From the NCBI GenBank assembly GCA_016180085.1, contig JACPBX010000003.1, positions 2,652 through 66,651 of the forward strand: 64,000 nt of DNA, in the 5' to 3' direction. The DNA comes from Candidatus Woesearchaeota archaeon (GTDB lineage Archaea > Nanobdellota > Nanobdellia > Woesearchaeales > UBA10216). A program made the translations under genes and the position numbers. The notes beneath the pieces are model-generated. The model did no database searches. It was given only the letters and a program-made list of their open reading frames with translations, and was not told where the DNA came from. Every line of letters starts with the position of its first letter. Within the stretch, counting starts at the first letter, position 1. Of the stretch, positions 1-56,158 are shown piece after piece.

Positions 1-829
1 TGTTACAGACATGGCTGCGCTTAGGTTAATAATAGAAAAGTATAACATAAAGACTATCTACCATCTTGCGGCGTTGTTGTCGATTGCTGCAGAGAAGAAT
101 CCTGCGCGTGCCCAAGAAGTGAATACAACCGGCTTCATGAATGTTCTTGAGGCTGCTAGGGAGTATGGCTTGAAGGTGTTCTGGCCAAGCTCAATAGCTG
201 TTTTTGGTCCCGATGCTCCAAAGCAGGACACTCCCCAGGACGCTCCGCTTAATCCTGTGACTGTTTACGGCAAGGGCAAGGTCGCTGGCGAGCTGCAAGG
301 CAAGAAGTATTTTGAAGAGTATGGCGTTGATTTCAGGAGTGTGCGTTTTCCCGGCCTAAATGACAGGCTTGCTGAGGGCGAGAAGCCCGGCCCGGGAACG
401 ACTGAGTACGCTATGGACATGATTGCTGCGGCAAAGGAGAACAGGCCATATAAGTCGCCTCTCAGGGCTGACACTATGCTGCCTATGATGGATATGCGCG
501 ATGCTATAAGGGCAATTCTTGGCATCATGGGAGCTCCAGCTAAGAACATCACGATAAGGACAAGTTACAATCTTGCAGCTGTCAGCTTTACTCCGGCTAT
601 GCTTCAAGCTGAAATAAGAAGGCAGGTTGACAGGCCCGGCTTTAAGGTTTCATACGATGAAATTGACCAAATGAAACAAGGCATTGCAGACTCCTGGCCT
701 GACAGAATTGGCGGCTCAGTTGCGCGCCGGGATTGGAGATGGAACCTTGGCGGCTCAGTTGCGCGCCGGGATTGGGGATGGAAACACCTGTATGGTTTGC
801 CAGAAATGGTTAAGCACATGCTGAGCTAA
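1..829 (+). CDS. Extended-SDR NAD-dependent epimerase/dehydratase, L-threonine 3-dehydrogenase-like (5' end off window)
   Basis: The frame is open from the window edge. It has YGKGK (YxxxK catalytic motif) and a C-terminal IADSWP...ARRDWGW...L.EMVKHML tail typical of UDP-glucose-4-epimerase-like threonine dehydrogenases. Stop at 827-829. Confidence 0.7.
   Translation, partial: VTDMAALRLIIEKYNIKTIYHLAALLSIAAEKNPARAQEVNTTGFMNVLEAAREYGLKVFWPSSIAVFGPDAPKQDTPQDAPLNPVTVYGKGKVAGELQGKKYFEEYGVDFRSVRFPGLNDRLAEGEKPGPGTTEYAMDMIAAAKENRPYKSPLRADTMLPMMDMRDAIRAILGIMGAPAKNITIRTSYNLAAVSFTPAMLQAEIRRQVDRPGFKVSYDEIDQMKQGIADSWPDRIGGSVARRDWRWNLGGSVARRDWGWKHLYGLPEMVKHMLS
708..785 (+). repeat. In-frame 39-bp tandem duplication (2 copies, 37/39 identical)
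   Basis: Copy 708-746 is ttggcggctcagttgcgcgccgggattggagatggaacc and copy 747-785 is ttggcggctcagttgcgcgccgggattggggatggaaac. They encode IGGSVARRDWRWN / LGGSVARRDWGWK. Confidence 0.95.
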
Positions 830-874
830 CTATATTTAAATAAAAAGCGAAAGAGTAGAGCGGAGGTGATTAGG

Positions 875-913
875 ATGGGTTGTGGATGCGGAAGTGATGA
901 CGGGGGCAAGTAA
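875..913 (+). CDS. 12-aa Cys/Gly micro-ORF MGCGCGSDDGGK
   Basis: GGAGGTGA at 862-869 lies 5 nt before the ATG. A near-identical peptide is encoded at 5325-5363(-), differing at 7 synonymous positions and one terminal codon. Confidence 0.5.
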   Translation: MGCGCGSDDGGK

Positions 914-1001
914 GCCCCTACATTACCTCAACATGCTTGGCGCTGTACTGGAAGTTTATGTAAGCGGAACTTTTAAATAAAGCAATCAAGGAGGATTTCA
1001 T

Positions 1002-1295
1002 ATGAACGAATTATCGTATAAGCTTTTTTTCAAAGCGATATCGAACAAAACGCGGTTTGAAATAGTGACCCGGCTTGGTTTAGAGCAGAGCAGGGTATCT
1101 CACAATCTGAAATGCCTGGTTGATTGCGGCTTTGTGAATGGCAGGTATAAAGGAAAAAGCAGGATATATTCGCTGACTCCGGAAGTGGTGGACATCTTAA
1201 ACGCCATTAACAGGCATCTGGACAAGTATCACGCCCATCTGAAATCATGCGGGGCGTTGGAAAAGCATGATGCTCCAAGAAGTTTGGGGAGGTGA
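1002..1295 (+). CDS. ArsR/SmtB-family wHTH regulator (unusually short)
   Basis: FKAISNKTRFEI...LGLEQSRVSHNLKCLVDCGFV matches the ArsR recognition helix and wing. SD AAGGAGGA is upstream, and a TATA-like cttttaaataaa lies at about 971-982. Confidence 0.75.
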   Translation: MNELSYKLFFKAISNKTRFEIVTRLGLEQSRVSHNLKCLVDCGFVNGRYKGKSRIYSLTPEVVDILNAINRHLDKYHAHLKSCGALEKHDAPRSLGR

Positions 1296-1301
1296 ATGAA
1301 A

Positions 1302-1370
1302 ATGGCAGAAGACAAAACGTGCGGTTGCGGTTCCGGAAAGAAGGAAAAGGACTGCTGCGGAAGCGGTTAA
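1302..1370 (+). CDS. Stand-alone SEC-C-motif mini-protein (22 aa) MAEDKTCGCGSGKKEKDCCGSG
   Basis: CGCGSGKKxKxCCG fits the SEC-C zinc-binding motif (CxCxSGxKxKxCC). GGAGGTGA at 1288-1295 overlaps the ArsR stop codon. Confidence 0.55.
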   Translation: MAEDKTCGCGSGKKEKDCCGSG

Positions 1371-1406: not shown

Positions 1407-1448
1407 ATGGCAGATACATGTGAGCATTGCGGCAGCGGAGGTGCTTAA
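1407..1448 (+). CDS. 13-aa micro-ORF MADTCEHCGSGGA
   Basis: GGAGG at 1394-1398 lies 8 nt before the ATG. It has a CxxCGSG core shared with neighbouring micro-ORFs. Confidence 0.35.
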   Translation: MADTCEHCGSGGA

Positions 1449-1499: not shown

Positions 1500-1739
1500 A
1501 TGGTAAAAGTGAAAGTTTACAGCACGCCAACGTGTCCCTGGTGTAAGAAGACAAAGGAGTTCCTAAAGGAGAACAGCATCCCTTACCAGGACGTAAACGT
1601 TGCAGGCGACCAAAAAGCGGCGGAGGAGATGTTTAAGAAGTCAGGCCAGATGGGCGTGCCAGTAACGGACATCGACGGGCAGATAGTGGTTGGCTTTGAC
1701 AAGCCAAAGTTGAAGGAACTGTTGAAAATCGGCGGATGA
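1500..1739 (+). CDS. Glutaredoxin-like protein (YruB/NrdH-like, CPWC active site)
   Basis: 79 aa, with YSTPTCPWCKKTKEFL and GVPV...GFD glutaredoxin-fold motifs. SD GAGGAGGT is upstream. Confidence 0.9.
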   Translation: MVKVKVYSTPTCPWCKKTKEFLKENSIPYQDVNVAGDQKAAEEMFKKSGQMGVPVTDIDGQIVVGFDKPKLKELLKIGG

Positions 1740-2051: not shown

Positions 2052-3071
2052 ATGACAAACAAGGCTGAAGGGATGTACGATGTCATAATAATCGGCGCGG
2101 GCGTTACAGGCCTTGCTGCTGGCATGTACGCTGGCAGGTTGAACATGAGGACCCTTGTTCTTGGAGCCACTTCAGGCACTGAGCAGCCAATCGGAGGGGT
2201 TATTACGCTTACCGAGGTCGTGGAGAATTATCCCGCGTTTATCAGGCTGACTGGCTCTGAACTTGCTGAGAACATGAGGAAACATGCAGAGGATTACAAA
2301 GAGAAAGTCACAATTGAAGAAGGAAAAGTGTTGGAAGTCAAGCGCCATGACGAGCGCGGGTGCTTTGCAGTAAAAACAGACGAAAAAGATTACGAAGCAA
2401 AGAGCATTATATTTGCAACAGGCACAAGGTGGAGAAAGTTGCCCATGAAAGGGGCAAAGGAATTTGAGAATAGGGGAGTTCATTATTGCGCGTTATGCGA
2501 TGGGCCTGTGTACAATGGCAAGGTAGTTGCAGTCGTTGGCGGCAGTGACACGGCTGTCAAGGAAGCTCTGTTTTTGGCTGAGTATGCGAAGAAGGTGTAC
2601 ATAATATATCGCGGTGATAAAATAAGGCCTGAGCCTGTTAACGCTAGACGTGTTGACGAGAACAAGAAAATTGTGGTGATAAACAACACTAACATCACTG
2701 AGATTGTGGGTGATAAACTGGTGAGTGAGGTTAAGCTTGATAAAAAGTTTGAAGGAAGCGATGCACTTAAGGTTGATGGTGTTTTTGGTGCTATAGGCAG
2801 CACACCGCTGTCGGAGCTCGCTGTGGGCATAGGCGTAAAGACTAATGAGAAAGGTGAAATCATGATTAACCATAAGGACTCAAGTACAAATGTTAAGGGC
2901 GTTTTTGCCGCTGGCGACGTTACTGACAAGGACTTCAAGCAGGCAATTACTGGTGTAGCGGAAGGAGTTACTGCTGCGCATTCAGCTTACCAGTATGTGA
3001 GCGAAATCGAATTTGTCTGTGTGTTTGATGATAAGCTATATGCGGAATCAAAGGCTGGTAACACGGAGTGA
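2052..3071 (+). CDS. trxB: Thioredoxin-disulfide reductase
   Basis: FAD motif DVIIIGAGVTGLAAG, redox-active CALCDG, and a second dinucleotide motif VVGGSDTAVKEA. Confidence 0.85.
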   Translation: MTNKAEGMYDVIIIGAGVTGLAAGMYAGRLNMRTLVLGATSGTEQPIGGVITLTEVVENYPAFIRLTGSELAENMRKHAEDYKEKVTIEEGKVLEVKRHDERGCFAVKTDEKDYEAKSIIFATGTRWRKLPMKGAKEFENRGVHYCALCDGPVYNGKVVAVVGGSDTAVKEALFLAEYAKKVYIIYRGDKIRPEPVNARRVDENKKIVVINNTNITEIVGDKLVSEVKLDKKFEGSDALKVDGVFGAIGSTPLSELAVGIGVKTNEKGEIMINHKDSSTNVKGVFAAGDVTDKDFKQAITGVAEGVTAAHSAYQYVSEIEFVCVFDDKLYAESKAGNTE

Positions 3072-3336: not shown

Positions 3337-5328
3337 ATGACGCGCCATATTGTTTTGGGTAATGGAACGCTGCTGGTGAATATCGACAAGTGGCTGCAGG
3401 TCAGGGATTTTTATTACCCCCACCCAGGCCAGGAGAACCATCTGCTCGGCCATGCGCACAGGGTCGGAGTTTTTGTTGGCGGGAAGCTTTCCTGGGTTAA
3501 TGAGGATTCGTGGCTGAGGAAGCTTTCCTACGTGGATGACACTCTGATCTCTGAAAGTTTGGCCAGTAACGCTGCGATGGAATGTTCATTGAAATTTAAC
3601 GACTGTGTTGACTGCAGCAAGGACGTTTTCCTGAGAAAGCTTACCCTTTCAAACGACAGCGGCAGTGAGAGGGATTTCACTGTTTTCTTCCATCATGATT
3701 TCCACCTTTACGGGGATGGCGTTGGTGATACTACAGGATATGACCCTGTTCGTAATTCTGTTTTTCATTACAAGCGCCGCAGGTACTTTCTCATCTCAGT
3801 TGTGCAGGCTGGCTCGCGCAGGAGCAATATCTTCGAATACTCCGTTGGCTTGTCTGATTCAGGAGGCACTTTAAATGATGCTTATGATGGCGCACTAGGT
3901 AAAATTCCAATAGCGCAGGGCTCTGTTGATTCCATATGCTCGGTAAAAGCGCTGCTTAAGCCTCACTCTTCAGCTGTTTTTTACTATTTTATCTGCTGCG
4001 GCAGGAGCTTTGATGATGTGAACGCTCTTCAGTCTTACGTGCTTGACAAGACACCTGAGGAATTCTTCAGGGAGACTGACGTGTGCTGGAGGGGTTATTG
4101 TGGGAAAGCCAAAAAGCTTCATTTTGCTGACTTGAGCCATGAGGAAGTGGACCTTTTCAAGCGCTCGCTTCTGATTACGAGGACCCAGATTGATAAGCAC
4201 GGTGCTATCCTGGCAGCTAACGACTCCGATAATGTGCAGTTTAACAAAGATACTTATTCATATGTTTGGCATAGGGACGGCGCTTTTGCGGCTTTGGCTT
4301 TGCAGAGGGCTGGCTATTTTGAGCTTGCAGAAAACTTTTACCTTTTCTGCAGCCGGGTGATTGAGCGTAACAAGCGGGAGGGTTATTTCCTGCACAAGTA
4401 CAATCCCGATGGCTCTTTGGGCAGCAGCTGGCACCCGTGGATAAAGGACGAAAAGCCGCAGCTCCCAATACAGGAGGATGGGTCTGCATTACCGGTTTAC
4501 GCGCTGTGGGATTATTATGTGCGCACAGGTGAGAAAAAGTTTGTTCGCGATATGTATGAGAAGTTTGCAAAGCCGGCTGCCGAGTTCATGTGCGGCTATG
4601 TTTACAAGGGGCTGCCAAGGGAGAGTTATGACTTGTGGGAGGAGCGCCAAGGCATCCTTACCTTTACCTGCAATGCCGTCTGTGCTGGGCTGAACGCTGC
4701 CGCAAATCTTGCAAAGGAGTTTCGTGACAAGGATTACAAGCGGTATGCTGCTGCAGCAGCAAAGGTGCATGCCTCGGTTGCAAGGCACTTGTACAGTAAG
4801 ATGCAGGGCAGGTTTGTGCGCATGACCAATCTTGTCAATGGAAAATTTGTTGCCGACTTAACCGTTGACAGCAGTTTGTACGCTAATTTTGCCCTTTGCG
4901 GGTTCAAGCCGGATGACAAGAGGGTCATAGGCACGATGAAGGCAATTGAGAAATACCTTTGGGTAAAAACAGGCATTGGAGGAGTTGCCAGGTATTACAG
5001 CGACCAGTATCACAAGAACTCGAATGATTTTGAAACTGTGCCTGGGAACCCGTGGTTTATCTGTACACTATGGCTAGCGAAATGGTACATTGCCATAGCC
5101 AAGAGCCTGGAAGATTTGAAGAAGCCCAGGGAGCTTATAAGGTGGGTTGTAGAACATGCATTGCCAACAGGCGTGCTTCCTGAGCAGATTCATCCCTATA
5201 GCGGAGAGCCGCTTTCAGTCGCCCCCTTGACGTGGAGTCACTCAGAGTATGTTGATACCGTGCTTGATTACAGTGCAAAGTACAAAGCGCTCAGTTCAGT
5301 AAATGTAAAAATTAAGAAAAAGAATTAA
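3337..5328 (+). CDS. Glycoside hydrolase family 15 (glucoamylase/trehalase-like)
   Basis: YSYVWHRDGAFAALAL, LPIQEDGSALPVYALW, ESYDLWEER and LPEQIHP...PLTWSHSEYV are GH15 catalytic-domain signatures. Confidence 0.9.
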   Translation: MTRHIVLGNGTLLVNIDKWLQVRDFYYPHPGQENHLLGHAHRVGVFVGGKLSWVNEDSWLRKLSYVDDTLISESLASNAAMECSLKFNDCVDCSKDVFLRKLTLSNDSGSERDFTVFFHHDFHLYGDGVGDTTGYDPVRNSVFHYKRRRYFLISVVQAGSRRSNIFEYSVGLSDSGGTLNDAYDGALGKIPIAQGSVDSICSVKALLKPHSSAVFYYFICCGRSFDDVNALQSYVLDKTPEEFFRETDVCWRGYCGKAKKLHFADLSHEEVDLFKRSLLITRTQIDKHGAILAANDSDNVQFNKDTYSYVWHRDGAFAALALQRAGYFELAENFYLFCSRVIERNKREGYFLHKYNPDGSLGSSWHPWIKDEKPQLPIQEDGSALPVYALWDYYVRTGEKKFVRDMYEKFAKPAAEFMCGYVYKGLPRESYDLWEERQGILTFTCNAVCAGLNAAANLAKEFRDKDYKRYAAAAAKVHASVARHLYSKMQGRFVRMTNLVNGKFVADLTVDSSLYANFALCGFKPDDKRVIGTMKAIEKYLWVKTGIGGVARYYSDQYHKNSNDFETVPGNPWFICTLWLAKWYIAIAKSLEDLKKPRELIRWVVEHALPTGVLPEQIHPYSGEPLSVAPLTWSHSEYVDTVLDYSAKYKALSSVNVKIKKKN

Positions 5329-5363
5329 TGCCCTCCATCGTCACTGCCGCATCCGCATCCCAT
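5325..5363 (-). CDS. 12-aa Cys/Gly micro-ORF MGCGCGSDDGGH
   Basis: Strong SD GGAGGAGGG (plus-strand 5372-5380) lies 8 nt before the ATG. It is a paralog of 875-913 with synonymous-only divergence over 11 codons. Confidence 0.5.
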   Translation of the reverse strand: MGCGCGSDDGGH

Positions 5364-5387
5364 TTTACTTTCCCTCCTCCTTCGTGT

Positions 5388-5627
5388 TTAAGCGCCCAGC
5401 TTTAAAGCCTTCTTAAGCGCGTTTTTGTCAAATCCCACAACTATCTGCCCGTCTACGTCTATAACCGGCACGCCCATCTGGCCTGACTTCTCAATCATCT
5501 GCTGGGCAGCCTTGTGGTCGGCTGCCACGTTTATTTCCTGATAGGGAACATTGCTCTCCCTTAGGAACTCCTTCGTTTTCTGGCACCACGGGCATGTAGG
5601 CGTGCTGTAAATGGTTACTTTTGCCAT
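5388..5627 (-). CDS. Glutaredoxin-like protein (YruB/NrdH-like, CPWC), second copy
   Basis: 79 aa, with 55/79 residues identical to 1500-1739 by hand alignment. Confidence 0.9.
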   Translation of the reverse strand: MAKVTIYSTPTCPWCQKTKEFLRESNVPYQEINVAADHKAAQQMIEKSGQMGVPVIDVDGQIVVGFDKNALKKALKLGA

Positions 5628-5642
5628 CGTCCATCTCCGCCC

Positions 5643-5738
5643 TCACATGCCGCTGCCGCAGCATGAGCTGTACTTTTTGCCAGAGCCGCAGCCGCACATT
5701 TTTTCTGATTTTTCGCTTTTTTCTTTCTTCATTGCCAT
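5643..5738 (-). CDS. Stand-alone SEC-C-motif mini-protein (29-31 aa) ...MCGCGSGKKYSSCCGSGM
   Basis: It carries a CGCGSGKKxxxCCG SEC-C motif and sits directly upstream of the glutaredoxin-like gene, as on the other arm. AAGGTGA precedes the second ATG (5732). Confidence 0.55.
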   Translation of the reverse strand: MAMKKEKSEKSEKMCGCGSGKKYSSCCGSGM

Positions 5739-5858: not shown

Positions 5859-7421
5859 TTACGGTTCTGTCTTCCACAGTTCTGTTTCCGGATGCTGCGC
5901 TGCCCACGAAAACCAGAAAGCTCCTATGCTTGGCAGCTGCTGAATCTCGGCGTTTTTTAATTCTCCGGAGACCGCCTTTAAGGAAGAGCCGCTGACCTGC
6001 CATTCTCCTCCCGTTTGGTCAAGAAGTTTGCCGCTGCTAAGGTTAAACCTCATCACTTTCGTCCCAATGCTCCTGTCAAACAGCTTTACGGCAGCTGTTT
6101 CGGGGTCTGCAATAACTAACAGTTCCCTCCCTTCGAAATTGTCATTTAATAAGCCAACCGTCAGGATGCTTTCCTCGTTATACGCCTTGTATTTGCCGTT
6201 TAGCTCAATTCCCTGAATTCTTGCCTTTGCAAAAAGCCTTTCGTCCTTGACAGCGACAGGGAACAGCGTTCCCTCACTGTCCTTGTAGCCGCCATACGGG
6301 TCTGTGCCATAAGGCCGTGCGTGGCCAGTGTCCCTGGATAGCACCTTTGTTTCAGGATACAGCTTCTTCCACCTCGCCCATGTTGTTGTTTCAATCGGTA
6401 CAACTGCCAGTTTTTGCCCGGCGAGCTCACCAACTGCACCTTTTCCTGTGAGCTGGTTCCAAAGCGTTTTTGTCTTCCTGTCATACATAAGCAGGTTGTT
6501 GTTGTAAAGCTTTCCTGAAGTGCCGAAAGTGACTGTTTCGCCATTAATTCTTCGCTCAAATGCTATGCCCGTGTCGCACAGGGGGCAGAAGGTAATGGCA
6601 AGCGGCTTTCCACGCACTTCATCGTTGACAATCTCGTGCCAGGTCATTATTTGCTCCGGGTAGGCTCGTGCCTCGCCATCAAGGTAAAGCCCCAGGACGA
6701 TTTCATCGTTGTTAAGCCAATTTTCAGCCTCTGGTGCTGTGATGAACTTGGGGCTGTCGATAGCCGGTATCCTGTCTTGCGGCAGAACCTCAACGATTTC
6801 GTCCAGCGGTATGGTATGTTTCACGCCGTTTGTTACTTTTGCCTCGTCCTTTTCTGCCTCTTTTATGTCTCTGGTTGAGCCAGTCAGCTTGCTTAGCTCT
6901 GATGTCAGCAGCTCATAATTTACAGGTCCTGTTATCCTGTTCCTTATTATGCCTTCTGAATCAATGAAGAAATGCACCGGCTGCCCAATTGTAAAATATT
7001 TCTTGCTCACAGAACCATCCGTATCAACTGCTACCACATAGGATATGTTATGTCTTTTGGCGTATTTAGAGACAGTTTCCAGGTCCTCCCTAATGCTTAC
7101 GCCTATGAACTGCACATCTTTGACCTCTGTTGCCGCCTTATTCAGGTCAGGCTGCTCTTCTCCACATATGGGGCACCATGTTGTGAAGAAGTTGATGTAC
7201 GCGGGTTTGCCGCTGTAGCTGCCGATGCTCACCGTAGTTCCGTCTGTTGCAGTGAGCGAGAACTGCGGCGCTTTTGAGTTAATCTCTCCGCTGCCCTCCT
7301 GGAAAGCGGCGAGTGTTTTTGCTATTTTCCCCTGTGCCTCGCTTGGGCTTTTCTGGCAGCCGGATGCAAGGATTACTGCCATCAATGCCGCCACTATGCC
7401 GATTGCTGCAAATCCTTTCAT
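5859..7421 (-). CDS. Lipoprotein fusing a TlpA/ResA-like thioredoxin domain to a DUF3179 domain
   Basis: Signal/lipobox AVILASGC, thioredoxin-fold WCPIC, and a C-terminal IPAIDSPKF...ARAYP...HEIVND...FCPLCDTG pattern typical of DUF3179. Confidence 0.8.
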   Translation of the reverse strand: MKGFAAIGIVAALMAVILASGCQKSPSEAQGKIAKTLAAFQEGSGEINSKAPQFSLTATDGTTVSIGSYSGKPAYINFFTTWCPICGEEQPDLNKAATEVKDVQFIGVSIREDLETVSKYAKRHNISYVVAVDTDGSVSKKYFTIGQPVHFFIDSEGIIRNRITGPVNYELLTSELSKLTGSTRDIKEAEKDEAKVTNGVKHTIPLDEIVEVLPQDRIPAIDSPKFITAPEAENWLNNDEIVLGLYLDGEARAYPEQIMTWHEIVNDEVRGKPLAITFCPLCDTGIAFERRINGETVTFGTSGKLYNNNLLMYDRKTKTLWNQLTGKGAVGELAGQKLAVVPIETTTWARWKKLYPETKVLSRDTGHARPYGTDPYGGYKDSEGTLFPVAVKDERLFAKARIQGIELNGKYKAYNEESILTVGLLNDNFEGRELLVIADPETAAVKLFDRSIGTKVMRFNLSSGKLLDQTGGEWQVSGSSLKAVSGELKNAEIQQLPSIGAFWFSWAAQHPETELWKTEP

Positions 7422-48222: not shown

Positions 48223-48240
48223 TGTCTCAGAAAAAGAAGT

Positions 48241-48356
48241 GTGAACAGCGATCCTGTTTTCCCGCACGACGTGCAGTACTGGTAGGAACGTGCGCCTGCT
48301 TAACTGTCCGAGTTCGAAATGGGATCGGGTGTACCCAGGCGGCCATGGCCGTTCAC
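48241..48356 (-). rRNA. rrf: 5S ribosomal RNA
   Basis: The reverse complement reads GTGAACGGCCATGGCCGCCTGGGTACACCCGATCCCATTTCGAACTCGGACAGTTAAGCAGGCGCACGTTCCTACCAGTACTGC...GCTGTTCAC. Helix I closes with gtgaacggc/gctgttcac. A T-tract follows. Confidence 0.9.
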
Positions 48357-53745: not shown

Positions 53746-54016
53746 TGGAAAAAGAAGAATGCGGGTTCACAGAACCCGGTTAACTCAGCTCCACTCTCAC
53801 TATGTGATGCAATAAGCTAACTTCTATTTAATCCTTTCGGTATGTTCTGCTTCACTGCGAATATTTCTTTCGGCAAAACCGAAAAACTTGCAAAATTTAC
53901 CTAAATTTTTGAAAGACTTCCGAGAATTTTGAAAACAATTCGTAATAGTCCAGAAATTTTATGGAATTTAAGGGAATAAGCTTATGAATTTCTTAATCCT
54001 AGTCTGTTGCGGGACT

Positions 54017-56158
<2,142 letters not shown>

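What the first reader, a model, noticed from the sequence alone, without database searches (positions are those of the whole stretch)
5325..5363. Two copies of a 12-aa peptide (MGCGCGSDDGG-K/H) differ almost only at synonymous sites
Compared codon by codon, 875-913 is atg ggt tgt gga tgc gga agt gat gac ggg ggc aag taa. The reverse complement of 5325-5363 is atg gga tgc gga tgc ggc agt gac gat gga ggg cat taa. Seven codons differ synonymously, none differs non-synonymously in the first 11 codons, and only the last codon changes (K/H). Two 39-nt segments 4.4 kb apart on opposite strands that drift only at third positions are the signature expected of a translated peptide under purifying selection. 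It is not what a chance ORF or a conserved RNA/DNA motif would show.
Basis: seen in the sequence. Interest (0 to 1): 0.65.

Follow-up and report, generated by a model that had tools for sequence, protein, structure and literature searches.

The report
Tiny two-cysteine peptide genes in archaea
Two 12-codon genes in a Woesearchaeota (DPANN archaeon) genome belong to a small, unannotated family of 9-13-residue peptides with an N-terminal Cys-Gly-Cys pair, encoded beside an ArsR-type regulator, glutaredoxin, thioredoxin reductase or mercuric reductase; they most likely act as free dithiol peptides in metal or thiol stress.

Summary
Window 875-913 (+) encodes MGCGCGSDDGGK and 5363-5325 (-) encodes MGCGCGSDDGGH. 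Codons 2-11 differ at seven third positions, all synonymous (chance about 6e-5 or less). Both ORFs have a strong Shine-Dalgarno site, ATG and TAA, and their flanks are unrelated. The neighbouring glutaredoxin paralogs are saturated at silent sites (dS 1.4, 70% aa identity), so the peptide is the better conserved of the two.

Loci found through the neighbouring ArsR gene, without using the peptide, carry further alleles:
- MCGCGSDDGGK
- MGCGCGSDDDSGK
- MSCGCSDDGGKK
- MCGCSDGSGK
- MCGCDGSGK

Every length difference is a whole number of codons. Each allele keeps its ribosome-binding site and TAA stop. Each lies next to arsR, with merA, glutaredoxin or thioredoxin reductase nearby. The window also holds two SEC-C-like mini ORFs and a third tiny CxxC ORF.

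My best reading is a real, translated micro-gene encoding a soluble N-terminal dithiol peptide. It would act as a soft-metal (Hg) ligand or hand-off agent and/or as a redox-active thiol recycled by Grx/TrxR, under ArsR control. Function is inferred and translation is not demonstrated. The family was seen in only a few related DPANN contigs. No database family or paper matches it.

The parts
835..842 (+). TATA-like box TTTAAATA about 33 nt upstream of the copy-1 start codon (possible own archaeal promoter; inferred)
   Evidence: Sequence. The same box and leader are conserved in L020 and L021. A near-identical box lies before arsR at 972-979.
862..869 (+). Shine-Dalgarno GGAGGTGA of micro-ORF copy 1, 5 nt before the ATG
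   Evidence: Only two GGAGGTGA-N3-9-ATG sites exist in the 64 kb window (0.15 expected), and both precede tiny Cys-rich ORFs.
875..913 (+). Micro-ORF copy 1: MGCGCGSDDGGK*
   Evidence: Orthologous alleles lie upstream of arsR in L020 (MCGCGSDDGGK) and L021/L022 (MGCGCGSDDDSGK).
1002..1295 (+). ArsR/SmtB-family regulator (97 aa, = MBI2140831.1). It lacks about 11 residues of the helix-turn-helix present in all homologs.
   Evidence: Pfam HTH_5 and NCBIfam HTH_metalloreg; homolog sequences; closest solved structures are CzrA, NmtR and SmtB; accession.
1302..1370 (+). SEC-C-like mini ORF MAEDKTCGCGSGKKEKDCCGSG (an alternative ATG lies at 1296), with a perfect SD
   Evidence: Pfam SEC-C is the only hit, below threshold at 10.9 bits. 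Ortholog in L015 at 6354-6422.
1407..1448 (+). Third tiny ORF, CxxC type: MADTCEHCGSGGA, SD GGAGGCGA
   Evidence: Positional homolog MCGTCGDGGGA in L015 at 6454-6489, with in-frame length differences.
1500..1739 (+). Glutaredoxin-like protein 1 (YruB family, CPWC active site)
   Evidence: Pfam Glutaredoxin; TIGR02196 at 102.7 bits against a cutoff of 88.55.
2052..3071 (+). Thioredoxin-reductase-like flavoprotein (339 aa)
   Evidence: Pyr_redox_2; TIGR01292 at 301 bits, below the equivalog cutoff of 343.
5325..5363 (-). Micro-ORF copy 2: MGCGCGSDDGGH*. It is the last gene of the Grx2 operon, and its stop overlaps the stop of the convergent GH15 gene by 4 nt.
   Evidence: The sequence is identical in metagenome contigs L009 and L010.
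5372..5380 (-). Shine-Dalgarno GGAGGAGGG of copy 2
5388..5627 (-). Glutaredoxin-like protein 2 (YruB family), paralog of 1500-1739 (70% aa identity, dS 1.38)
5643..5732 (-). SEC-C-like mini ORF 2: MKKEKSEKSEKMCGCGSGKKYSSCCGSGM
   Evidence: Pfam SEC-C at 17.1 bits against a cutoff of 20.4. Conserved in L009/L010.
5859..7421 (-). Predicted exported thioredoxin-like (AhpC/TSA, ResA-like) + DUF3179 fusion protein upstream of the copy-2 module

Best explanation
The two 39-nt segments are real protein-coding micro-genes of a previously unannotated family. The peptides are 9-13 residues long with the pattern M-(G/S)0-1-C-G-C-(G)-S-D-(D)-G-(S)-G-K/H.

Shown:
- The ORFs are under purifying selection at the amino-acid level.
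- Each has its own strong ribosome-binding site.
- They are embedded in, or abut, operons of an ArsR/SmtB-type regulator together with glutaredoxin, thioredoxin reductase or mercuric reductase in related Woesearchaeota.

Inferred:
- After removal of the initiator Met, the peptide exposes a vicinal Cys-X-Cys dithiol at its extreme N-terminus, followed by a flexible, acidic Gly/Ser/Asp tail.
- It works in trans as a soluble low-molecular-weight dithiol.
- It chelates thiophilic metals, above all Hg(II), which needs a bis-thiolate ligand. It then hands them to the C-terminal Cys pair of NmerA-less archaeal MerA or to the ArsR sensor.
- And/or it cycles between dithiol and intramolecular disulfide and is re-reduced by the adjacent Grx/TrxR.
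- Expression would rise when the ArsR repressor is released by metal or thiol stress.
- In the window itself no merA is present, so the redox or metal-buffer role alongside Grx/TrxR is the relevant one.
For: Coding constraint: there are 7 of 7 synonymous third-position differences in codons 2-11 (P about 6e-5 or less). The neighbouring Grx paralogs show dN 0.18, dS 1.38 and only 70% aa identity. At that rate, 10 unchanged residues would be expected about 3% of the time (my arithmetic). Only the sense frame is translatable in both copies.

Translation signals: a perfect anti-16S match, GGAGGTGA, lies 5 nt before the ATG. Only two such sites exist in the 64 kb window, both before tiny Cys ORFs, against 0.15 expected.

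Family: loci fetched through ArsR homologs carry these alleles:
- MCGCGSDDGGK (L020)
- MGCGCGSDDDSGK and MSCGCSDDGGKK (L021/22)
- MCGCSDGSGK (L027)
- MCGCDGSGK (L067)
- looser relatives MCGTCGDGGGA (L015) and MCDSCGCGGSSPPKAR (L029)

The five CGC-type alleles keep SD, ATG and TAA, and their indels are whole codons, while their flanks diverge with non-triplet indels. Of 29 SD-preceded ATG ORFs of 8-17 codons in 123 kb of loci, 10 start with CxC or CxxC, and all 10 lie in these ArsR/Grx/MerA loci.

Context: the flavoproteins next to arsR in L020, L022, L015 and L023 pass the curated MerA equivalog cutoff (492-566 bits against 454). They have the CVNVGC site plus a C-terminal CCVE and lack the N-terminal NmerA domain. 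The window and L015, L029 and L067 carry YruB-type Grx and TrxR instead.

Chemistry from the literature: H-Cys-Gly-Cys-NH2 has E0' = -0.167 V and catalyses disulfide formation and isomerisation. Genetically encoded CXC peptides of 16 and 24 residues (CRC/CWC-alpha-helix-HDEL among those recovered) rescue a pdi1 deletion in yeast (bioRxiv 10.64898/2026.01.27.701630). Archaeal mer operons are typically merA with an arsR-type regulator and, in Sulfolobus, a small TRASH metal-binding protein (PMC3466566).
Against: - There is no direct evidence of transcription or translation.
- The family was found only on a handful of contigs of related DPANN archaea. Strict pattern scans of 185,579 species genomes and of the JGI metagenomes gave only two further true hits, both near-identical to copy 2.
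- The three copies upstream of arsR (window, L020, L021) sit in a block of about 90-95% nucleotide identity that includes non-coding DNA. They are therefore weak as independent evidence.
- More distant ArsR-MerA or ArsR loci lack the ORF (L023-25, L028, L056-66), so MerA does not require it.
- The window has no merA, and its ArsR has lost part of the DNA-binding helix.
- Two cysteines make a weak chelator compared with metallothioneins.
- Very short peptides may be unstable in vivo.
- The metal role and the redox role cannot be separated with sequence data.
Confidence: 0.5

Rival explanations
1. The peptide is a regulatory partner of ArsR, not a bulk buffer. It would deliver metal to the ArsR-type repressor or form a metal- or disulfide-bridged complex with it, tuning derepression. 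This would resemble CopZ acting on CopY, or the TRASH protein MerH acting on the Sulfolobus ArsR-type MerR.
For: ArsR is the most constant neighbour, present in 6 of 7 distinct contexts, with the ORF placed immediately upstream or downstream of it. The ArsR clade has conserved Cys motifs (LKCLxxCGF, C-terminal CG). Small metal-binding partners of ArsR-type mer regulators are known in Sulfolobus (PMC3466566).
Against: Copy 2 has no adjacent regulator. The window's ArsR has an internal HTH deletion, yet both peptide copies stay intact. No ArsR-peptide fusion exists among the 120 homologs.
Confidence: 0.15
2. The ORF is a cis-acting upstream or leader ORF. Translation of the Cys-rich mini-ORF would matter, rather than its product. 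It could couple ribosomes to the next gene or sense Cys-tRNA or thiol status to control downstream thiol genes.
For: Several copies precede another gene: arsR (window, L020, L021a), merA (L021b), a 42-aa Cys-rich membrane protein (L027, L067) and grx (L015, L029). In copy 1 the SD can pair with a TTACCTC box just after the stop codon (z = -2.76).
Against: Copy 2 is the last gene of its operon and faces a convergent gene, so it has nothing to regulate. The position relative to arsR is not fixed. The non-Cys residues (S-D-D-G-G) are conserved at the amino-acid level across saturated silent sites. The hairpin is not shared by the other copies and shows no covariation.
Confidence: 0.12
3. The ORFs are non-functional relics, for example truncated descendants of the neighbouring SEC-C-like zinc-knuckle mini-genes. 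They would be kept by chance or by a DNA-level constraint such as a promoter or operator.
For: They share the CGCGS pentapeptide with the adjacent SEC-C-like ORFs. The upstream-of-arsR copies sit inside strongly conserved non-coding DNA. About 250 nt around copy 2 is 100% identical in L009/L010, so that pair is uninformative.
Against: The silent-site-only divergence between the paralogs has P of about 6e-5 or less. Across the five CGC-type alleles there are only whole-codon indels, and SD/ATG/TAA are retained, while flanks diverge. The Ser codon class differs from the SEC-C ORFs (AGT against TCC/TCT), which argues against recent derivation. No palindrome or operator-like repeat covers the ORF.
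Confidence: 0.08
4. The peptide is a precursor of a modified product (RiPP) or a peptide-derived cofactor, whose Cys residues are processed enzymatically.
For: It is very small, Cys/Gly-rich and highly conserved, which resembles precursor peptides such as PqqA or MftA (my own knowledge).
Against: No radical-SAM enzyme, YcaO, lanthipeptide synthetase, peptidase or exporter lies in any of the loci (Pfam lists). Nine to thirteen residues leave no room for a leader plus a core. There is no NCBIfam or Pfam hit.
Confidence: 0.05

Closest known systems
SmtB-SmtA type pairs (ArsR/SmtB-family repressor next to a gene-encoded metallothionein)
   Same: An ArsR/SmtB-family regulator sits directly beside a small, gene-encoded, Cys-containing, aromatic-free peptide that could bind thiophilic metals. 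The closest solved relatives of the regulator are CzrA, NmtR and SmtB.
   Different: Bacterial metallothioneins are about 55 residues long, with many Cys forming a metal-thiolate cluster (my own knowledge). These peptides have 9-13 residues and only two Cys. There is no sequence match to any Pfam or NCBIfam family.
Mercury hand-off modules of mer operons: NmerA/MerP (HMA fold, GMTCxxC) and the Sulfolobus TRASH protein MerH with an ArsR-type MerR
   Same: A dithiol module is encoded beside merA and an arsR-type regulator. The MerA proteins here lack NmerA, so a trans-acting dithiol would fill the same niche. Archaeal mer operons with arsR and a small metal-binding protein are described in PMC3466566.
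   Different: Those are folded domains of about 70 residues. Here the product is an unstructured peptide, with CxC rather than CxxC spacing in most alleles. It is absent from more distant ArsR-MerA loci, and there is no merA in the window.
SEC-C motif / SecA metal-binding domain (Pfam PF02810)
   Same: It shares the C-G-C-G-S start of the motif. Genuine SEC-C-like mini ORFs (CGCGSGKK...CCGSG) lie in the same operons at window 1302-1370 and 5732-5643.
   Different: The peptide lacks the second Cys/His pair that completes the four-ligand site. It gives no Pfam hit, and its Ser codon class differs from that of the SEC-C-like ORFs.
Designed CXC peptides (CGC tripeptide, CXC-linker-HDEL) that mimic protein disulfide isomerase
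   Same: An N-terminal Cys-X-Cys is followed by a short flexible Gly/Ser-type tail, about 12 residues in total and genetically encodable. CGC has E0' of -0.167 V and thiol-disulfide exchange activity.
   Different: Those are synthetic and act in the oxidising eukaryotic ER. Here the peptide is a natural cytoplasmic product of an anaerobic-type archaeon, and its activity is untested.
Phytochelatins and synthetic (Glu-Cys)n-Gly analogues
   Same: They are small peptides with alternating Cys and carboxylate-bearing residues that buffer Hg, Cd and As (my own knowledge).
   Different: Phytochelatins are made enzymatically from glutathione, not on the ribosome. There are only two Cys here.

Membership tests
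Translated micro-gene (small ORF-encoded peptide) | Substitutions between diverged copies are biased to synonymous sites | tested here: met
   There are 7 of 7 synonymous third-position differences in codons 2-11, with P of about 6e-5 or less. The adjacent Grx paralogs have dS 1.38.
Translated micro-gene (small ORF-encoded peptide) | Start codon, ribosome-binding site and stop codon are retained in homologs, and indels are whole codons | tested here: met
   The five CGC-type alleles (9-13 codons) retain all of these features. The two looser alleles are L015 (11 codons), which also keeps a GGAGGTGA SD and TAA, and L029 (16 codons). No alternative frame is translatable in both window copies.
Translated micro-gene (small ORF-encoded peptide) | Direct detection of translation or of the peptide | not testable with these tools
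   This needs Ribo-seq or targeted mass spectrometry.
Metallothionein | Sequence membership in a described metallothionein family | tested here: not met
   No Pfam or NCBIfam hit for the padded or concatenated peptide, even at E <= 1-10.
Metallothionein | High Cys content with CxC/CxxC motifs, no aromatic residues, and formation of metal-thiolate clusters | tested here: inconclusive
   The CxC motif is present, Cys content is 2 of 12 (17%) and there are no aromatic residues. Cluster formation with only two Cys is doubtful and cannot be tested here.
SEC-C motif (PF02810) | CxC ... C(C/H) four-ligand metal site, with a score above the Pfam gathering threshold | tested here: not met
   The peptide has only the first CxC and gives no hit. 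Even the neighbouring full mini ORFs score 10.9-17.1 bits against the 20.4 cutoff.
mer operon accessory protein (MerP/NmerA HMA domain, TRASH/MerH) | Folded HMA (GMTCxxC) or TRASH (C-x19-22-C-x3-C) domain | tested here: not met
   The peptide has 9-13 residues and neither motif.
mer operon accessory protein (MerP/NmerA HMA domain, TRASH/MerH) | Encoded in an operon with a bona fide merA | tested here: inconclusive
   This is met in L020 and L021/L022, where MerA scores 547-556 bits against a cutoff of 454 and ends in a C-terminal CC pair. It is not met in the window (no merA), L027, L067 or L029.
Leader peptide / regulatory upstream ORF | Fixed position upstream of the regulated gene on the same transcript | tested here: not met
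   Copy 2 is the last ORF of its operon and faces a convergent gene. In homologs the position varies between upstream and downstream of arsR.
RiPP precursor | Co-located modifying enzymes and a leader-core architecture | tested here: not met
   No modifying enzyme families appear in any locus. The peptide is too short for a leader plus a core.
Structured RNA element | Match to a known RNA family, or a shared fold with covariation | tested here: not met
   Rfam finds only a 5S rRNA and a tRNA, far from the ORFs. Folding z-scores are -2.76, +1.63, +0.38 and -0.26 with no common fold, and there is no informative covariation.

The most novel reading that the evidence does not exclude
These micro-genes encode a ribosomally made low-molecular-weight dithiol, a natural counterpart of the synthetic CGC mini-oxidoreductase. 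In genome-reduced DPANN archaea it would take the place of glutathione-type thiols. It would serve as a general redox buffer and as the Hg(II)/soft-metal carrier, kept reduced by the adjacent glutaredoxin and thioredoxin reductase and induced through ArsR. It would be among the shortest functional gene products known and a new class of cellular thiol cofactor.
Probability: 0.2. Interest if true: 0.85.

Novelty: new variant of a known kind. Interest (0 to 1): 0.6.

Why it matters
- Genes of 9-13 codons are invisible to standard annotation. This is a clean case where comparative sequence evidence alone shows that one is selected as a protein.
- If the peptide is a soluble dithiol, it would address what DPANN archaea use as a low-molecular-weight thiol. 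It would also address how NmerA-less archaeal MerA receives Hg(II).
- It would be a natural example of the minimal CXC catalysts that have so far only been designed in the laboratory.
- A 10-residue genetically encodable Hg/Cd/As ligand with its own regulator would be useful for biosensing and bioremediation.
- The hypotheses are cheap to test, because the peptide can simply be synthesised.

Tried and rejected
- **Species-genome scan.** A degenerate DNA pattern for M-G-C-G-C-G-x-[DE]-[DE]-G against 185,579 species genomes gave one hit. It is a chance match inside a Chloroflexota amidase-like gene, in another frame.
- **JGI metagenome scan.** The same pattern gave 13 hits. Only L009 and L010 are real and belong to the same lineage. 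The rest lie inside longer ORFs or overlap rsmA out of frame.
- **IMG/VR scan.** A looser pattern gave 22 hits, all inside phage genes or antisense to them.
- **Family searches.** NCBIfam and Pfam searches with the padded or concatenated peptide found nothing.
- **Protein database search.** I therefore could not test whether longer proteins begin with this sequence.
- **Exact look-up.** A look-up of the window's ArsR in the contig index found nothing, although the protein is in the protein collection.
- **RNA explanations.** Rfam was negative. Only copy 1 folds unusually well, through SD/anti-SD pairing, and this is neither shared with the other copies nor supported by covariation.
- **Operator or palindrome over the ORF.** None was found.
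- **Fusion with ArsR.** No N- or C-terminal extension resembling the peptide exists in the 120 ArsR homologs.
- **Literature.** String searches for the peptide and topic searches found no description.
- **The 42-aa Cys-rich membrane ORF and other small neighbours.** No informative Pfam hits.
Full report
**Observation.** The two segments are exactly as described. Window 875-913 (+) reads ATG GGT TGT GGA TGC GGA AGT GAT GAC GGG GGC AAG TAA. The reverse complement of 5325-5363 reads ATG GGA TGC GGA TGC GGC AGT GAC GAT GGA GGG CAT TAA. A degenerate back-translation of MGCGCGSDDGG with up to three mismatches finds only these two places in the 64 kb, with none in 100 shuffles. They differ at nt 6, 9, 18, 24, 27, 30 and 33, all third positions and all synonymous, and at two positions of the last codon (K/H). 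The chance that seven random substitutions in codons 2-11 all hit third positions is 5.9e-5. Simulations that also required synonymy gave 0 to 1e-5.

Both ORFs are preceded by a Shine-Dalgarno sequence: GGAGGTGA five nt before the ATG of copy 1, and GGAGGAGGG eight nt before that of copy 2. Both end in TAA. Outside the ORF the two loci share nothing but the SD. GGAGGTGA-N3-9-ATG occurs only twice in the whole window (0.15 expected), and both sites precede tiny Cys-rich ORFs.

**Is it coding?** Third-position-only change is also almost silent in one antisense frame, which would read PPSSLPHP(Q/H)P. The substitution pattern alone therefore does not fix the strand. In both window copies, however, every frame other than the proposed one has either an internal stop or no start codon upstream.

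The duplication is old. The 79-aa glutaredoxin-like paralogs beside the two copies (1500-1739 + and 5627-5388 -) are 70% identical in protein, with dN 0.18 and dS 1.38. At that rate, ten unchanged residues would be expected only about 3% of the time (my arithmetic). Gene conversion cannot explain the identity, because silent sites differ.

No Rfam family lies near either copy. Folding of four family members gives z-scores of -2.76, +1.63, +0.38 and -0.26 with no common structure.

**Organism and context.** The neighbouring 97-aa ArsR/SmtB-type regulator (1002-1295) is identical to MBI2140831.1 of a Candidatus Woesearchaeota MAG, on a contig of 147,581 bp.

The copy-1 locus runs in this order:
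1. micro-ORF (875-913)
2. arsR
3. a 22-aa SEC-C-like mini ORF, MAEDKTCGCGSGKKEKDCCGSG (1302-1370)
4. a third tiny ORF, MADTCEHCGSGGA (1407-1448)
5. YruB-type glutaredoxin (1500-1739)
6. a thioredoxin-reductase-like flavoprotein (2052-3071)

The copy-2 locus, on the minus strand, runs in this order:
1. an exported thioredoxin-like/DUF3179 fusion (7421-5859)
2. a second SEC-C-like mini ORF, MKKEKSEKSEKMCGCGSGKKYSSCCGSGM (5732-5643)
3. the glutaredoxin paralog
4. the micro-ORF, as the last gene

Its stop overlaps that of a convergent GH15 glycosidase gene. SEC-C is the only Pfam family the mini ORFs touch, and they score below threshold (17.1 and 10.9 bits against 20.4).

**Relatives.** Strict pattern scans were nearly empty. 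The species-genome collection gave one chance hit. The JGI metagenomes gave only two true hits, L009 and L010. These are about 91% identical to the window overall but 100% identical for roughly 250 nt around copy 2, so they say nothing about selection. IMG/VR gave only chance hits.

The informative relatives came from a route that did not use the peptide. I took homologs of the ArsR protein and then fetched the contigs that encode them. Scanning those loci for tiny ORFs gave the following.

| Locus (ArsR identity to the window) | Peptide | Position |
|---|---|---|
| L020 (67%) | MCGCGSDDGGK | upstream of arsR-merA |
| L021/L022 (59%) | MGCGCGSDDDSGK | upstream of arsR |
| L021/L022 (59%) | MSCGCSDDGGKK | between arsR and merA |
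| L027 (61%) | MCGCSDGSGK | just after arsR |
| L067 (56%; syntenic with the window: epimerase, arsR, peptide, 42-aa Cys-rich membrane ORF, grx, trxR) | MCGCDGSGK | just after arsR |
| L015/16/19 (64%) | MCGTCGDGGGA | between a SEC-C-like mini ORF and grx; positional homolog of window 1407-1448 |
| L029-33 (50%) | MCDSCGCGGSSPPKAR | overlaps the arsR 3' end, before grx |

All five CGC-type alleles keep an SD, ATG and TAA, and all their length differences are whole codons. Their flanks differ by substitutions and non-triplet indels. Of 29 SD-preceded ATG ORFs of 8-17 codons in 123 kb of loci, ten begin with CxC or CxxC, and all ten lie in these operons.

Two limits apply. First, the three upstream-of-arsR copies (window, L020, L021) sit in a block of about 90-95% nucleotide identity that also covers the promoters, so they are not independent. 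Second, more distant ArsR loci (L023-25, L028, L056-66) lack the ORF.

**What the neighbours say.** The 467-471-aa flavoproteins beside arsR in L020, L022, L015 and L023 score 492-566 bits on the curated MerA equivalog model (cutoff 454). They carry the CVNVGC redox site and a C-terminal CCVE pair, and they start at the core, so they lack the NmerA metal-binding domain. The window has no merA. Its partners are glutaredoxin and thioredoxin reductase.

The regulator's closest solved relatives are the metal sensors CzrA, NmtR and SmtB. The window's copy lacks about 11 residues of the helix-turn-helix that every homolog has. Archaeal mer operons are described as merA with, in some lineages, an arsR-type regulator and a small TRASH metal-binding protein (PMC3466566). 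No 9-13-residue component is mentioned there or in any paper retrieved by sequence-string or topic searches.

**Mechanism (inferred).** By the established specificity of methionine aminopeptidase, initiator Met is removed before Gly, Ser or Cys. The mature peptides would therefore start G-C-G-C, S-C-G-C or C-G-C, placing a vicinal dithiol at the extreme N-terminus ahead of a flexible acidic Gly/Ser/Asp tail and a C-terminal Lys or His.

Such a peptide can do two chemically related things. First, it can bind thiophilic metals as a bis-thiolate. Hg(II) needs exactly this, and MerA takes Hg(II) from thiol ligands onto its C-terminal Cys pair. In bacteria the fused NmerA domain does this job, and these archaeal enzymes lack it. 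Second, it can cycle between dithiol and an intramolecular disulfide. H-Cys-Gly-Cys-NH2 has E0' = -0.167 V and catalyses disulfide exchange, and genetically encoded CXC peptides can replace PDI in yeast (bioRxiv 10.64898/2026.01.27.701630). The adjacent Grx/TrxR would be the obvious recycling system.

Because several copies are co-oriented with arsR and separated from it by only 6-90 nt, expression is probably under ArsR control.

I commit to this 'soluble dithiol peptide acting in trans in metal or thiol stress' model at about 0.5. That it is a genuine selected coding gene I put at about 0.85.

**Rivals.**
- A dedicated ArsR co-factor or metallochaperone (0.15) fits the constant arsR linkage. 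It does not fit copy 2, which has no regulator beside it, or the damaged ArsR of the window.
- A cis-acting leader ORF (0.12) fits the copies that precede other genes and the SD/anti-SD hairpin around copy 1. It fails for copy 2, which ends its operon, and it does not explain amino-acid conservation of the non-Cys residues.
- A relic of the SEC-C-like mini genes, or a DNA-level constraint (0.08), is contradicted by the silent-site pattern, the whole-codon indels and the different Ser codon class.
- A RiPP or cofactor precursor (0.05) lacks any modifying enzyme in the seven locus types and has no room for a leader.

**Comparison with known systems.** Functionally the nearest paradigms are:
- SmtB-SmtA (ArsR-family repressor plus metallothionein);
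- NmerA/MerP and Sulfolobus MerH (dithiol hand-off modules of mer operons);
- the SEC-C zinc knuckle, of which the peptide resembles only the first half;
- phytochelatins;
- the synthetic CXC oxidoreductase mimics.

It is a sequence member of none of them. At 9-13 residues with two cysteines it is far smaller than any of the gene-encoded ones. I therefore class it as a new variant of a known kind, namely small gene-encoded thiol or metal-binding peptides under an ArsR-type regulator. There is a 0.2 chance that it is something more novel: a ribosomally made low-molecular-weight thiol cofactor of DPANN archaea.

**Verdict.** The feature is larger than reported. The two copies are part of a cluster of at least five tiny Cys-rich ORFs in the window, and of a small family across related Woesearchaeota ArsR/Grx/TrxR/MerA loci. 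Translation and function remain untested, and the phylogenetic breadth seen here is narrow.

Noticed in passing
window 1302-1370 (+) and 5732-5643 (-); L015 6354-6422; L009/L010: There are 22-29-aa mini ORFs consisting almost only of a SEC-C-like metal-binding motif (CGCGSGKK...CCGSG), each with a strong SD, placed directly before the two glutaredoxin paralogs. SEC-C is the only Pfam hit and it is below threshold.
   Followed up: partly
window 1407-1448 (+); L015 6454-6489: A third tiny ORF, MADTCEHCGSGGA (CxxC type, SD GGAGGCGA), lies between the SEC-C-like ORF and grx. A positional homolog, MCGTCGDGGGA, sits in a related MAG and differs by whole codons.
   Followed up: partly
window 1002-1295 (+): The ArsR-family regulator lacks about 11 residues (equivalent to LLRKGSKSVTAIC, part of the helix-turn-helix) that are present in all 8 homologs inspected. 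It may be inactive, yet both peptide genes remain intact.
   Followed up: partly
window 708-783 (+); L067 1-30: There is a perfect-register 39-nt tandem duplication (1.9 copies, 97% match) inside the 3' end of the epimerase ORF 11-829. The syntenic contig L067 begins with the same sequence. From about 800 onward the window is about 95% identical to L020, which suggests a recombination junction that brought in the peptide-arsR 5' block.
   Followed up: partly
window about 5180-5440 (-) compared with L009/L010: About 250 nt spanning the end of grx2, micro-ORF copy 2 and the GH15 3' end are 100% identical to two metagenome contigs that are otherwise about 91% identical. This could be a local sweep, recombination or an unusually strong constraint.
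   Followed up: no
L027 1250-1338; L067 531-659: A 42-aa ORF (MKMAKLCPMSGCKEKQGMCIHDKAMVFVALAVIAFVIYRVVI) follows the tiny ORF in two loci. It has a three-Cys N-terminus plus one predicted transmembrane helix and gives no Pfam hit. It could be a small thiol or metal membrane protein.
   Followed up: partly
window 845-945 (+): The SD of copy 1 (GGAGGTGAT) can pair with ATTACCTC just after the stop codon, enclosing the whole ORF in a hairpin (-33.5 kcal/mol, z = -2.76). The box is conserved in L020 and L021, but there is no covariation to judge it by.
   Followed up: partly
window 835-842 and 972-979 (+): Near-identical TATA-like boxes (TTTAAATAAA(A)GC) precede both the micro-ORF and arsR. They are conserved in L020 and L021, which suggests two adjacent archaeal promoters of the same type.
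   Followed up: no
window 5325-5328: The stop codons of the convergent GH15 gene (3337-5328, +) and micro-ORF copy 2 (5363-5325, -) overlap by 4 nt.
   Followed up: no
window 48240-48356 (-) and 54016-54107 (+): There is a 5S rRNA gene (68.5 bits) and a tRNA-Leu(CAG), the only structured RNAs detected in the window.
   Followed up: no
L015 589-2321 (-) and 7042-9636 (-): The related MAG carries a second arsR-merA pair and a YHS/HMA P-type ATPase within 6 kb of its ArsR-mini-ORF-Grx module. Metal-resistance genes therefore cluster around these micro-ORFs.
   Followed up: no
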